From: the human T2T-CHM13v2.0 reference genome, Homo sapiens
Length of the DNA stretch: 64,000 nucleotides
NCBI GenBank assembly: GCA_009914755.4
Contig: CP086569.2
Location: 13,024,001 to 13,088,000, forward strand
Direction: 5' to 3'
Of the stretch, positions 49,791-56,127 are shown piece by piece. Position numbers and translations under genes: made by a program. The notes under the pieces are model-generated. The model was not told the DNA's origin. It worked only from the letters and a program-made list of their open reading frames with translations, and ran no database searches. The first letter of the stretch is position 1; every line of letters begins with the position of its first letter.

Positions 49791-51731
49791 CCAGAAGGAA
49801 AACATTTCTAAAATAGGAAAGACTTGCTCACATGGCACAGGCACTGTGGGGCATTTGAAGTAGGCAGAGTGAGGCCAGAGGGTTGTGTTTTTGAGGAAGC
49901 CTGGTTACTGAAAGAAACAACTACCAGAGCCCCCCAAACAAGCTTCCACTATACTTTACTCAGCATTTTTGCAAAGACCCCACTCTGTCAAGAAAGCTTC
50001 AGCCTGTTAATCACCAAATCATGCTTGAGCTAGAGGCTGAAGTGGAACATTGCAAAGCCCTGTTGTAATAAAACCAGGAATAAGATCATCAACCCTCATT
50101 GTCTGGTTCATAGACTTTCTTCTGGGATGAGATGCCCACATCTTACCATCTCAGTCATAGATTGCTTTTCCTGGATGGAGATGCTCACGACCCAACATTC
50201 GGTCATAGATTACTTTTCCCTGAAATCATAACAGCACCACCCACCAACACAGTCAGAGATTGTACTCTATTATTATTTATTGTAAGAACATCCCGGTCCT
50301 TTCCCCTTGATTTTAGATATATAGTTATGAATAAATAACCCAGTGGCCTTACAACATTGACATATTTCCAAGTAGAGAAATCTTCCAAAAATCTTCAAAT
50401 AGGCATTGTCATTACTTAGAATAAGACAGAGCATTTATGTAGTTATTTGCTTTTTTGAGACCATGGGCAGCCTACATGTATAACTTGAAAATGAGGAATT
50501 GCAAAAAGGAAAATGTAAACCAAAATGTAATACATTCAGTACAGAAAGAGATAGCGATCATTGCCTTAAGTAAAGCGAGTGACTCATACAACAAATGCTG
50601 ACTTGAATGGAGGTGTGAACATATCCAGATACATGCAGTGTGTCACACAAGCATCTAATGAAATGAAACAAAGCAAATAAAAGACCTAAGTCCAAGCTGC
50701 AATATATATTGTAGATGCATAACCATGGTTAGAGGAGAAAATACGCTACCCAGCTGAGAGAACCCTATAATTCCAAGAATTTGCACCTCTTTTTATAGAA
50801 ATGAACTCCTTAATCCATTTGAGTCAGGAAACATTCAATTCACTTACATTTTATGACTCTGTAAACTCAAAAATTATCTCTCAATTCACTTATGTTTTAT
50901 GGCTCTGTAAACTCAAAAATTCTCTCCCTAATTATAAATTAGCTTTGCATATATACTTCCAAATTGGAGAATATGATTGCCTTAGATTGATGCCTAGCAG
51001 TTAAAATGTTTACTGAATCAACATTATAAATGAACTTGAATAAACATATAGCTGACATTTTGGTTGTCATTCAGAATATTTTGCATGCAAACAAATGAAT
51101 TCAGCATAAGGTAGTATTATGGAATTCAACAAACTAAAAACATAATTTTGACCTTATTTAGTACAGATAAATAGAATATATACAGTTAACATAAAATATA
51201 TTCTCTGGATTAAAAACAACCTAATCTAACAGTAAAAACATAATTTTCTGGATTAAAAAAATTTAGTACGTTTTCTCTAAGATTTTGGATGAAGCTTATC
51301 CAGTGATAACTGATCCCATCTCACCACTTTTCCAGGTGTTTATAAGTCAGCTACCATAATGGCCAGTGGTCTTACCTTCAACTCCTTCATTCACTCACCA
51401 AGACAAAGGGGAGTAGAACCAAAAAGAGTCATTAGCAATGTCACCAGTTTGCATGCAGTGGCTCAACTCAAGCTGTTAAAGATGCATAGGAGAAGATCCT
51501 ATATACAAAAGTGGAACTTTGTAAACTATATCTTCTCCAAGAGCCTGAAGGAATTATTGCATTGACATTCTGTGAAGAACGACAATTTGGTTAAAAACTA
51601 ATTTTGATTTCAGCTCCATGAAAAACTGTTCCCTAAAACAAGGGGTCGATTGATTAAAATAACGAAAGAAAAGAAAATCAGAATAATAACAGAGTAATTG
51701 GCAGGCGTATACAATAGACTTTTTTTCTTTC

Positions 51732-54665
51732 TTTTATATATATATTTTTTTATTATACTTTAGGTTCAAGGGCACATGTGCACAACGTGCAGGTTTGTTA
51801 CATAGGTATACATGTGCCATATTGGTGTGCTGCACCCATTAACTAGTCATTTACATTAGGTATATCTCCTAATGCTATCCCTTCCCCATTTCCCCATCCC
51901 ACAACAGGCCCCATTGTGTGATGTTCCCCTTCCAGTGTTCAAGTGTTCTCATTTCTCAGTTCCCACCTATGAGTGAGAACATGTGGTGTTTCATTTTCTG
52001 TCCTTGAGATAGTTTGCTGAGAATGACGGTTTCCAGCTTCATCTATGTCCCTACAAAGGACAAGAACTCATCATTTTTTATGGCTGCATAGCATTCCATG
52101 GTGTATATGTGCCACATTTCCTTAATCCAGTCTATCATTGGTGGACATTTGGGTTGGTTCCAAGTCTTTGTTATTGTGAATAGCACCACAATAAACATAC
52201 ATGTGCATGTCTCTTTAAAGCAGCATGATTTATAATCCTTTAGGTATATACCCCATAATAGGATAGCTTGTTCAAATGGTATTTCTAGTTCTAGAGCCTT
52301 GAGGAATTGCCACACTGTCTTCCACAATGGCTGAACTAGCTTACAGTTCCACCAACAGTGTAAAAGTTTTCCTAATTCTCCACATCCTCTCCAGCACCTG
52401 TTGTTTCCTGACTTTTTAATGATCTTCATTCTAACTGGTGTGTGATGGTATCTCATTGTGGTTTTGACTTGCATTTCTCTGTTGGCCAGTGATGATGAGC
52501 ATTTTTTCATGTGTCTTTGGCTGCATAAATGTCTTCTTTTGAGAAGTGTCTGTTCATATCCTTCGCCCACTTGTTGATGGAGTTCTTTGTCTTTTTTCTT
52601 GTAAATTTGTTTGAATTCTTTGTAGATTCTGGATATTAGCCCTTTGTCAGATGAGTAGACTGCAAAAATTTTCTCCCATTCTGTAGGTTGCCTGTTCACT
52701 CTGAGGGTAGTTTATTTTGCTGTGCAGAAGCTCTTTAGTTTAATTAGATCCCATTTGCTAATTTTGGAATTTGTTGCCATTGCTTTTGACGTTTTTATTC
52801 ATGAAGTCCTTGTCCATGCCTATGTCCTGAATGGTATTGCCTAGGATTTCTTCTAGGGTTTTTATGGTTTTAGGTCTAAAATTTAAGTCTTTAATCCATC
52901 TTGAATTGATTATTGTATAAGGTGTAAGGAAGGGATCCAGTTTCAGCTTCCTACATATGGCTAGCCAGTTATCCCAGCACCATTTATTAAATAGGAAATC
53001 CTTTCCCCATTTATTGTTTTTGTCAGGTTTGTCAAAGATCAAATAGTTGTAGATGTGTGATATTATTTCTGAGGGCTCTGTACTGTTCCATTGGTCTGTA
53101 TCTCTGTTTTGGTACCAGTACCATGCTGTTTTGGTTACTGTAGCCTTGTAGTACAGTTTGAAGTCAGGTAGCATGATGCCACCAGCTTTGTTCTTTTGGC
53201 TTAGGATTGTCTTGGCAATGTGGGCTCATTTTTGGTTCCATATGAACTTTAAAGTAGTTTTTTCCAATTCTGTGAAGAAAGCCTTGGTAGCTTGATGGGG
53301 ATGGCATTGAATCTATAAATTACCTTGAGCAGTATGGCCATTTTCACAATATTGATTCTTCCTATCCATGAGCATGGAACGTTCTTCCATTTGTTTGTAT
53401 CCTCTTTTATTTTGTTGAGCAGTGGTTTGTAGTTCTCCTTGAAAAGGCCCTTCACATCCCTTGTAACTTGGATTTCTAGGTATTTTATTCTCTTTGAAGC
53501 AATTGTGAATGGGAGTACATTCATGATTTGGCTCTCTGTTTGTCTGTTATTGGTGTATAAGAATGCTTGTGATTTTTGCACATTGATTTTGTATCCTGAG
53601 ACTTTGCTGAAGTTGCTTATCAGCTTAAGGAGATTTTGGGCTGAGATGATGGGCTTCTCTAGATATACAATTCATGTCATCTGCAAACAGGGACAATTTG
53701 ACTTCCTCTTTTCCTAATTGAATACCCTTTATTTCTTTCTCCTGCCTGATTGCCCTGGCCAGAACTTCCAACACTATGTTAAATAGGAATGATGAGAGAG
53801 GCATCATGGTTTTGTGCCAGTTTTCAAAGGGAATGCGTCCAGTTTTTGTCCATTCAGTATGATATTGGCTGTGGGTTTGTCATAAATAGCTCTTATTATT
53901 TTGAGATATGTCCCATCAATATCTAATTTACTGAGACTTTTTAGCATGAAGGGCTGTTGAATTTTTGTCAAAGGCCATTTCTGCATCTATTGAGATAATA
54001 ATGTGGTTTTTGTCTTTGGTTCTGTTTATATGCTGGATTATCTTTATTGATTTGTGTATGTTGAACCAGCCTTGCATCCCCGGGATGAAGCCCACTTGAT
54101 CATGGGGGATAAGCTTTATGATGTGCTGCTGGATTCGGTTTGCCAGTATTTTGTTGAGGATTTTCACATCAATGTTCGTCAGGGATATTGGTCTAAAATT
54201 CTCTTTTTGTTGTTGTGTCTCTCCCAGGCTTTGGTATCAGGATGATGCTGGCCTCACAAAATGAGTTAGGGAGGCTTGTCTCTTTCTCTATTGATTGGAA
54301 TAGTTTCAGAAGGAATGGTACCAGCTCCTCCTTGTACCTCTGGTAGAATTTGGCTGTGAATCCATCTGGTCCTGGACTCTTTTTTGGTCGGTAAGCTATT
54401 AATAATCACCTCAATTTCAGAGCCTGTTATTGGTCTATTCAGAGATTCAACTTCTTCCTGGTTTAGACTTGGGAGGGTGCATGTGTCAAGGAATTTATCC
54501 ATTTCTTCTAGGTTTTCTAGTTTATTTGCATAGAGGTGTTTATAGTATTCTCTGATGGTAGTTTGTATTTCTGTGGGATTGGTGGTGATATCCCCTTTAT
54601 GATTTTTTATTGCATCTATTTGATTCTGCTCTCTTTTCTTCATTAGTCTTGCTAGTGGTCTATCA
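51732..54665 (-). mobile_element. L1 (L1PA-type) insertion, direct (sense-on-minus) 3' segment: ORF2 from ~codon 382 through 3'UTR and poly-A (poly-T on plus strand); part of a twin-primed L1 together with 54666-55620
   Basis: Plus strand begins ttttatatatatatttttttattatactttaggttcaagggcacatgtgcacaacgtgcaggtttgttacataggtatacatgtgcc.. (reverse complement of L1 3' terminus); minus ORFs 52043-52699 (..[26 protein letters not shown]..), 52758-53174, 53249-53581, 53625-53807 (..[38 protein letters not shown]), 53928-54167, 54266-54643 (..[32 protein letters not shown]..); segment ends ..cattagtcttgctagtggtctatca (IDRPLARL). Confidence 0.92.
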
Positions 54666-55620: not shown

Positions 55621-56127
55621 TTGAATAGTCTTTTTTCTTTCACGTCTTCCCTCAATGATTACTTTGCCATGGAACAATGATCTGCTGATTCAGGTAGCAA
55701 GATTGTTGTATTTCAGAGAAAAATTGTCGTATTTCAGGGGAAATACTGAGATCAGGCTACAGGGTAGTTGAGGTAAAAATAAAGTCGGAGGAGTCAAAAA
55801 CAATACCAGAAATGTGGAATCTGTTAGAAGATTTCTCATTCCTTCTGTTCGTCACTGAGACCAGCACGATCTGATGTTAGACCAGTGACAGAGCCATCAT
55901 GCTGACTTATTTCTTTCTTTTATTGCAAGGAAGTTTGGTTCTGGGAATGAGAAGCTTAAGTAACACGTGTAAAATTCCTAATCTTTCACAGGTCAGCCTT
56001 CACTGTTCATTAAGTACTTTAGGATCTTGTGCTTTGAGTCAGTGGCTGGGAAAGTTCACTTCACTTCCCAAAATGGATTTCATAATTCCATTAGCAGATC
56101 CCCTTGGCTGAACACAGTTACCACTGA

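What the first reader, a model, noticed from the sequence alone, without database searches (positions are those of the whole stretch)
51713..55641. 3.9-kb L1 insertion with twin-priming 5' inversion and recognisable target-site duplication
- **Direct segment:** 51732-54665 is L1 in minus orientation, running from ORF2 codon ~382 to the poly-A, which reads as poly-T on the plus strand.
- **Inverted segment:** 54666-55620 is L1 in plus orientation, covering the ORF2 endonuclease domain from codon ~27 to ~377.
- **Junction:** the outer end of the inverted piece (codon ~377) lies ~15 bp upstream of where the direct piece begins (codon ~382). The internal junction joins codon ~27 to codon ~382.
- **Fit to model:** this is exactly the geometry predicted by the twin-priming model for L1 5' inversions. 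That fit is an inference from established knowledge.
- **Target-site duplication, seen in sequence:** both ends are flanked by AATAGACTTTTTTTCTTTC and AATAGTCTTTTTTCTTTC, at 51713-51731 and 55624-55641.
Basis: partly seen in the sequence, partly recalled or inferred. Interest (0 to 1): 0.5.

Follow-up and report, generated by a model that had tools for sequence, protein, structure and literature searches.

The report
Old L1 insertion with inverted 5′ end
This is a dead, 3.9-kb copy of the primate L1 retrotransposon whose front part was inserted backwards, a common and well-described by-product of L1 integration, so it is real but ordinary.

Summary
Window 51732-54665 is L1 on the minus strand, running from ORF2 codon 374 through the stop codon and 3'UTR to a 20-nt A-rich tail. 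Window 54662-55625 is L1 on the plus strand, covering ORF2 codons 37-368. The window coordinates and the geometry are right.

- **Adjacency:** measured against a full-length L1 elsewhere in the window, the outer end of the inverted piece (ref 21501) and the start of the direct piece (ref 21516) are 14 nt apart.
- **Junctions:** the internal junction has a 4-nt overlap (ATCA), and the outer junction shares AA with the target.
- **Flanking repeat:** the composite is flanked by a 19/18-nt target-site duplication (17 matches, 1 mismatch, 1 indel). A score this high occurred in 11 of 20,000 random flank pairs. The duplication ends at a TTTC/A endonuclease site.
- **Age:** both pieces are equally diverged from the reference L1 (91.2% vs 90.3%, p=0.44).
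- **No independent insertion:** the inverted piece has no 3' end or poly-A tail of its own.

All of this fits the twin-priming class of L1 5' inversions, which makes up about 18-22% of L1 insertions. The finding is already known and of low interest. A second, smaller example lies 1 kb downstream (56669-57092). Subfamily assignment and the empty-site test could not be done with these tools.

The parts
51713..51731 (.). Target-site duplication, copy next to the tail (the 3' TSD in L1 sense orientation): AATAGACTTTTTTTCTTTC on the + strand.
   Evidence: Read directly. Aligns to 55624-55641 with 17 matches, 1 mismatch and 1 indel; chance 11/20,000.
51732..51751 (-). Remnant of the poly-A tail, 20 nt: AAAAAAATATATATATAAAA on the L1 sense (minus) strand, partly decayed into a TA repeat.
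   Evidence: TRF reports a TA-rich array at 51731-51761.
51752..54665 (-). Non-inverted (poly-A-primed) L1 segment: ORF2 from codon D374 to N1275 (54665-51959), stop TGA at 51958-51956, 3'UTR at 51955-51752. It has many frameshifts.
   Evidence: blastn to the in-window L1, ref 24443->21516; tblastn aa 370-1275 in several frames; junction read base by base; stop codon.
54662..54665 (.). Internal junction microhomology ATCA, shared by the end of the direct piece (GGTCTATCA) and the start of the inverted piece (ATCAG..., codons P36/S37).
   Evidence: The two blastn HSPs overlap at 54662-54665; alignments to the reference L1.
54662..55625 (+). Inverted (internally primed) L1 segment: ORF2 codons S37 to E368. 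This covers most of the endonuclease domain plus the following ~130 residues. It carries 7 in-frame stops and a 32-nt internal deletion at about 55084/55085.
   Evidence: blastn to ref 20508->21501; tblastn 37-368 at 78% identity; translation; deletion columns.
55624..55641 (.). Target-site duplication, copy next to the inverted piece (the 5' TSD in L1 sense orientation): AATAGTCTTTTTTCTTTC. Its first two bases (AA, 55624-55625) also match L1 (…TTTGAA), giving a 2-nt priming microhomology.
55638..55642 (+). Inferred first-strand L1 endonuclease nick site, TTTC/A, on the + (bottom) strand of the reconstructed empty site …AATAGACTTTTTTTCTTTC|ACGTCTTCC…
   Evidence: Reconstruction. TTTC/A is one of the three motifs counted as EN cut sites in PMC12016303.

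Best explanation
This is a single, ancient, now-dead L1 (L1PA-type) retrotransposition event that produced a 5'-truncated, 5'-inverted copy. It is the product class explained by twin priming.

Shown by the sequence: L1 endonuclease nicked the window's + strand at …CTTTC/ACG…. The T-rich 3' end primed reverse transcription on the poly-A tail and made the minus-oriented piece, from the tail up to ORF2 codon 374.

Inferred: the second-strand nick, 19 bp away, freed a top-strand 3' end (…GACTATT-3'). That end annealed through its terminal TT to an internal AA of the same L1 RNA (…UUUGAA, codon 368), 14 nt upstream of where the first cDNA stopped. It primed a second cDNA that ran up to codon 37. 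The two cDNA ends were then joined at a 4-nt microhomology (ATCA).

The result, read on the + strand, is: TSD, tail, direct piece (antisense), inverted piece (sense), TSD. The element has since accumulated stops, frameshifts and a 32-nt deletion, and it has no function.
For: - Coordinates and orientation of both pieces.
- ORF2p numbering validated on PDB 8UW3.
- 14-nt gap between ref 21501 and 21516, and both junction microhomologies.
- TSD significance: 11/20,000 random pairs, 94/19,854 T-rich pairs.
- Equal divergence of the two pieces from one contiguous reference L1: 91.2% vs 90.3%, Fisher p=0.44, K2P 0.094 vs 0.105. Other L1 copies in the window range from 85% to 91.5% against that reference. 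The reference is contiguous.
- The inverted piece ends inside ORF2, with no 3'UTR or poly-A of its own, so it is not a normal independent insertion.
- EN site TTTC/A.
Against: - Nothing contradicts this explanation.
- The tail is short (20 nt) and degenerate.
- The TSD copies differ at two positions and are low-complexity (T-rich).
- The 2-nt and 4-nt microhomologies are too short to be significant on their own.
- Subfamily identity of the two pieces was tested only as equal divergence from one reference, not against L1PA consensus sequences.
- No empty orthologous site could be examined.
- The mechanism itself is a model and cannot be observed in a fossil copy.
Confidence: 0.93

Rival explanations
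1. An ordinary 5'-truncated L1 insertion (codon 37 to poly-A) was inserted normally. Its 5'-most ~1 kb was inverted later by a chromosomal rearrangement unrelated to retrotransposition.
For: This would give the same order and orientation of pieces and the same equal divergence. Short junction microhomologies are also typical of end-joining repair.
Against: One inversion breakpoint would have to fall exactly at the L1/TSD boundary (55623/55624), leaving the TSD copy intact. Twin priming predicts this, but it would be a coincidence for a random inversion. 5' inversions with this geometry are a recurrent feature of new germline and somatic L1 insertions (PMC12016303).
Confidence: 0.03
2. Two independent L1 insertions of opposite orientation happen to lie side by side, or one is nested at the end of the other.
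For: L1 fragments are dense in this window; at least eight other pieces were found.
Against: - The plus-oriented piece stops in ORF2 codon 368 and has no 3'UTR or poly-A, which any independent TPRT insertion would carry.
- Its outer end lies 14 nt from the start of the other piece in L1 coordinates. The chance of falling within ±16 nt on a 6-kb element is about 0.5% (inference).
- One TSD brackets both pieces.
- The two pieces are equally diverged.
Confidence: 0.01
3. The inversion arose during retrotransposition but not by classical twin priming. Possibilities are template switching of the reverse transcriptase, use of a second L1 RNA molecule primed internally, or repair-mediated capture of a second cDNA.
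For: The product cannot distinguish one RNA from two identical RNAs. The priming microhomology is only 2 nt. Variant and 'dual priming' schemes have been proposed (PMC2837659).
Against: The near-adjacency (14 nt) of the two cDNA end points on the L1 sequence is what a single RNA copied from two primers predicts. With two independent RNAs the end points need not be adjacent.
Confidence: 0.03

Closest known systems
L1 5' inversion/deletion insertions attributed to twin priming (Ostertag & Kazazian 2001, as described in PMC2837659 and PMC12016303)
   Same: TSDs bound two oppositely oriented fragments of one L1. The outer end of the inverted fragment is adjacent in L1 coordinates to the start of the non-inverted fragment. 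There is a small internal deletion (14 nt), a poly-A only on the non-inverted fragment, an EN-type nick site, and short microhomologies at both junctions.
   Different: Nothing in kind. It is longer than the median (2.9 kb non-inverted and 0.96 kb inverted, against germline medians of 571 and 751 bp in PMC12016303). It is also old and decayed, with a short degenerate tail.
Classical 5'-truncated L1 insertion by target-primed reverse transcription
   Same: EN site, TSD, poly-A tail, 5' truncation (the copy lacks the 5'UTR, ORF1 and ORF2 codons 1-36).
   Different: The 5'-most 0.96 kb is in the opposite orientation, and 14 nt are missing at the switch point.
Twin-priming variants / dual priming with a 5' poly-T (Meyer et al. 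2010, PMC2837659)
   Same: Both belong to the same family of TPRT variants that use both nicked strands as primers.
   Different: In those loci the first reverse transcriptase stops inside the poly-A tail, so they look like a poly-T next to a sense L1. Here the poly-A-primed cDNA runs for 2.9 kb.
The neighbouring small 5'-inverted L1 at window 56669-57092
   Same: Same architecture: inverted piece ref 24253->24141, direct piece ref 24252->24431, flanked by a 13-nt perfect TSD.
   Different: It is an independent, apparently younger event on the other strand. It is only ~0.3 kb of L1, has no internal deletion, and has a longer tail.

Membership tests
L1 (LINE-1) retrotransposon copy | Sequence homology to L1 ORF2 (EN/RT) and to the L1 3'UTR | tested here: met
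   tblastn with human ORF2p, validated against PDB 8UW3: aa 37-365 and 370-1275, E down to 0.0. About 90% DNA identity to a full-length L1 in the same window.
TPRT-mediated insertion | Target-site duplication flanking the insertion | tested here: met
   19/18-nt repeat exactly at both ends, with 17 matches. Chance 11/20,000 for random pairs and 94/19,854 for T-rich pairs.
TPRT-mediated insertion | Poly-A tail at the 3' end of the element, abutting the TSD | tested here: met
   A 20-nt A/TA-rich remnant at 51732-51751, between the L1 3' terminus (…GTATAAT) and the TSD. It is short and degenerate.
TPRT-mediated insertion | L1 endonuclease-type nick site (TTTT/A, TTTT/G or TTTC/A, as scored in PMC12016303) | tested here: met
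   The reconstructed empty site reads …TTTTTTTCTTTC/ACG… on the primer strand, i.e. TTTC/A.
Twin-priming 5' inversion | Two fragments of L1 in opposite orientation inside one pair of TSDs, with the inverted one at the 5' side | tested here: met
   Minus-strand piece at 51732-54665 and plus-strand piece at 54662-55625; TSDs at 51713-51731 and 55624-55641.
Twin-priming 5' inversion | The outer (TSD-proximal) end of the inverted fragment is adjacent in L1 coordinates to the start of the non-inverted fragment, with a small deletion or duplication | tested here: met
   Ref 21501 against ref 21516, so 14 nt are missing. 46% of 5'-inverted insertions fall within 20 bp (PMC12016303).
Twin-priming 5' inversion | Both fragments derive from the same L1 RNA (same subfamily and age) | tested here: inconclusive
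   Divergence from one in-window reference is equal (91.2% vs 90.3%, p=0.44). The test has only modest power, because other copies range from 85% to 91.5%. No L1PA consensus library was available for a diagnostic-site assignment.
Twin-priming 5' inversion | Complementarity between the top-strand target overhang and the internal priming site, and microhomology at the cDNA-cDNA junction | tested here: met
   AA shared at 55624-55625 and ATCA shared at 54662-54665. Both are short, so they are consistent but not significant on their own.
Twin-priming 5' inversion | A single-step insertion: the orthologous empty site holds one TSD copy, and no species carries only one fragment | not testable with these tools
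   No primate genome collection is available. Two scans of metagenome contigs for the unique flanks found nothing.

The most novel reading that the evidence does not exclude
The most novel reading still open is that the inversion is not a twin-priming product but a later rearrangement or an alternative cDNA-joining pathway. A related possibility is that the two 5'-inverted L1s lying within 5.4 kb of each other (51713-55641 and 56669-57092) reflect a local property of this region that favours early second-strand nicking. With roughly 20% of L1 insertions inverted and about nine L1 pieces in the window, two such events are close to the number expected by chance.
Probability: 0.03. Interest if true: 0.15.

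Novelty: already known. Interest (0 to 1): 0.05.

Why it matters
It matters very little beyond correct annotation. Repeat annotators often split 5'-inverted L1s into two elements, and recognising them as one event gives correct insertion counts and ages. The locus is a clean worked example of the architecture: TSD, TTTC/A nick site, a 14-nt gap and junction microhomologies. It adds nothing new to what is known about L1 integration. The copy is non-functional, with multiple stops, frameshifts and no promoter.

Tried and rejected
- **Orthologous empty or filled site.** I scanned metagenome contigs, looking for host contamination, with the left flank CAGAGTAATTGGCAGGYRTATAC and the right flank CTTCCCTCAATGATTACTTTGCCATGG. 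Both gave 0 hits. Dating by comparative genomics was therefore not possible.
- **Original twin-priming paper.** PMC311219 is not held in the library, so the model's definition is cited from PMC2837659 and PMC12016303.
- **Is the reference L1 a mosaic?** The low ORF2p identity of the reference L1's EN region (64.8%) raised this worry. The alignment shows it is due to frameshifts in one contiguous element, so the worry was rejected.
- **Rfam scan of the window.** It gave only one hit, Metazoa_SRP at 59934-60081, which is an Alu. It is irrelevant to the finding.
- **GC-rich block at 41-43 kb.** I checked it for a CpG island or coding ORF. CpG o/e is 0.2 or lower, and the ORFs are unremarkable.
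- **CpG density of the two pieces.** 10 CpGs in 2.9 kb against 7 in 0.96 kb. The counts are too small, and too dependent on the consensus, to say anything about age.
- **Recalled L1HS DNA as a reference.** I considered using a recalled L1HS nucleotide sequence as the reference and rejected it. Only the protein could be validated, so DNA comparisons use the in-window L1 instead.
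Full report
**What is there.** The window is an Alu- and L1-rich, CpG-poor mammalian (primate-type) region. To get reliable L1 coordinates I wrote out human L1 ORF2p and checked it against the Protein Data Bank. It aligns to 8UW3 chain A over residues 1-1275 of both sequences, with no indels and a handful of substitutions, so its numbering can be used. 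tblastn of this protein on the window puts ORF2 residues 37-365 on the plus strand at 54663-55616. It puts residues 370-1275 on the minus strand from 54676 down to 51959, in several frames. The window also contains a near full-length L1 on the plus strand, which served as a nucleotide reference: ORF1 at 19321-20334, ORF2 at 20401-24218, and a tail ending at 24443.

**Breakpoints.**
- blastn against that reference aligns window 51732-54665 to reference 24443->21516 (minus) and window 54662-55625 to reference 20508->21501 (plus). In L1 coordinates the inverted block ends 14 nt before the direct block begins. The missing bases are reference 21502-21515, AGGATCAATAAGAT, which are ORF2 codons R369-I373.
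- Reading the junctions base by base shows that the internal junction, GGTCTATCA|GCATGCTG, has four bases (ATCA, 54662-54665) that can be assigned to either piece.
- The outer junction, …GCTGGTTTTTTGAA|TAGTC…, shares AA (55624-55625) between L1 (…TTTGAA, E368) and the start of the target-site duplication.
- The true codon coordinates are therefore S37-E368 for the inverted piece and D374 onward for the direct piece (motif positions). Its window coordinates and the stated geometry are correct.

**Ends of the insertion.**
- On the plus strand, AATAGACTTTTTTTCTTTC (51713-51731) is followed by a 20-nt tail remnant (51732-51751; AAAAAAATATATATATAAAA on the L1 sense strand) and then the L1 3' terminus.
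- At the other end, the inverted piece runs straight into AATAGTCTTTTTTCTTTC (55624-55641).
- The two copies match at 17 positions, with one mismatch and one single-base indel (local score 14).
- In 20,000 random pairs of 30-mers taken 3.92 kb apart in this window, 11 scored that high. Among pairs of T-rich 30-mers, 94 of 19,854 did. Neither control requires the match to sit precisely at the element boundaries.
- Joining the flanks reconstructs the empty site …GGCGTATAC AATAGACTTTTTTTCTTTC|ACGTCTTCC…. The first-strand nick falls at TTTC/A, one of the three motifs scored as L1 endonuclease sites in PMC12016303.

**One event or two?** There are four arguments for one event.
- The plus-oriented piece ends inside ORF2 and has no 3'UTR or poly-A, so it cannot be a normal independent insertion.
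- Its outer coordinate lies 14 nt from the start of the other piece. For unrelated fragments of a 6-kb element, landing within ±16 nt has a chance of roughly 0.5% (inference).
- One TSD brackets both pieces.
- The two pieces are equally diverged from the reference L1. Over gap-free columns the figures are 2640/2895 = 91.2% for the direct piece and 867/960 = 90.3% for the inverted piece (Fisher p=0.44; K2P 0.094 and 0.105).

The reference is one contiguous element. Its poor protein-level score in the EN region is caused by frameshifts. Other L1 fragments in the window range from 85% to 91.5% identity to the same reference. The equal-divergence test therefore has some power, but only modest power. 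I score the 'same source RNA' criterion as inconclusive rather than met, because no L1PA consensus library was available.

- Shown: the nick site, the tail-primed minus-oriented cDNA, the position of the second priming site, and the junction sequences.
- Inferred: the top-strand 3' end …GACTATT annealed by its terminal TT to the AA of codon 368 on the same RNA and primed the second cDNA back to codon 37. The two cDNA 3' ends were then joined at ATCA.

A later chromosomal inversion could give the same picture. It would need one breakpoint exactly at the L1/TSD boundary, and I give that reading about 3%. Variants that use a second RNA or template switching cannot be excluded from a fossil copy. 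They are disfavoured by the adjacency of the two end points.

**State of the copy.** The inverted piece has seven in-frame stops and a 32-nt deletion near 55084/55085. The direct piece needs at least six frames' worth of HSPs to cover ORF2. In the last 800 bp it carries 4.7% private substitutions relative to three other L1 3' ends in the window. It is an old, fixed-looking, non-functional copy. From memory, its 3'UTR resembles middle-aged L1PA subfamilies, but I did not test this.

**Comparison with what is known.** 5' inversions occur in 18.4% of germline and 21.9% of somatic L1 insertions. In 46% of them the two cDNA end points are within 20 bp of each other (PMC12016303). This locus is a typical member of that class. 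It is longer than the median, and its 19-nt TSD lies at the upper end of the usual 7-20 nt range (PMC2837659). Nothing about it is unexpected.

**What could not be done.** Two scans of metagenome contigs for the unique flanks returned nothing. The original twin-priming paper is not in the library.

**Verdict.** The finding is already known and of low interest.

Noticed in passing
window 56669-57092: A second, independent 5'-inverted L1 lies 1 kb downstream. 56674-56786 matches reference L1 24253->24141 (minus). 56785-56980 matches 24252->24431 (plus), followed by a long interrupted A-rich tail. It is flanked by a perfect 13-nt repeat, GAAAATTCACCTT (56669-56681 and 57080-57092). The two L1 coordinates abut with no deletion. 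The TSD end TTCACCTT matches the L1 antisense TTCCCCTT at 7 of 8 bases, a clearer internal-priming microhomology than in the main finding.
   Followed up: partly
window ~19321-24443 (+), with a separate L1 3' end at 17995-18323: A near full-length L1 with ORF1 (19321-20334) and ORF2 (20401-24218). Its in-frame parts are about 90-95% identical to human ORF1p/ORF2p, but it has several frameshifts. Another L1 3'-end fragment sits immediately upstream of it. I used it as the internal reference.
   Followed up: partly
window 12625-14669 (+): An L1 fragment whose ORF2 coordinates jump from about aa 747 (13151) to about aa 851 (13176). The two parts differ in identity to the reference L1 (85% vs 88%). 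This is either an internal deletion or two juxtaposed fragments.
   Followed up: no
window 59934-60081 (-) and more than 25 other sites: The only Rfam hit in the window, Metazoa_SRP (71 bits against a gathering score of 70), is an Alu element. Self-comparison shows more than 25 Alu-like ~300-bp copies, clustered especially at 56.2-63.4 kb.
   Followed up: partly
window 5024-5684; 40893-41227; 41454-41781: Internally repetitive blocks seen in the self-comparison. The first lies in a strongly G-over-C skewed kilobase (GC skew 0.45 at 5001-6000). The 41-42.5 kb block is the most GC-rich part of the window (0.49-0.57), but its CpG o/e is 0.2 or lower, so it is not a CpG island.
   Followed up: no
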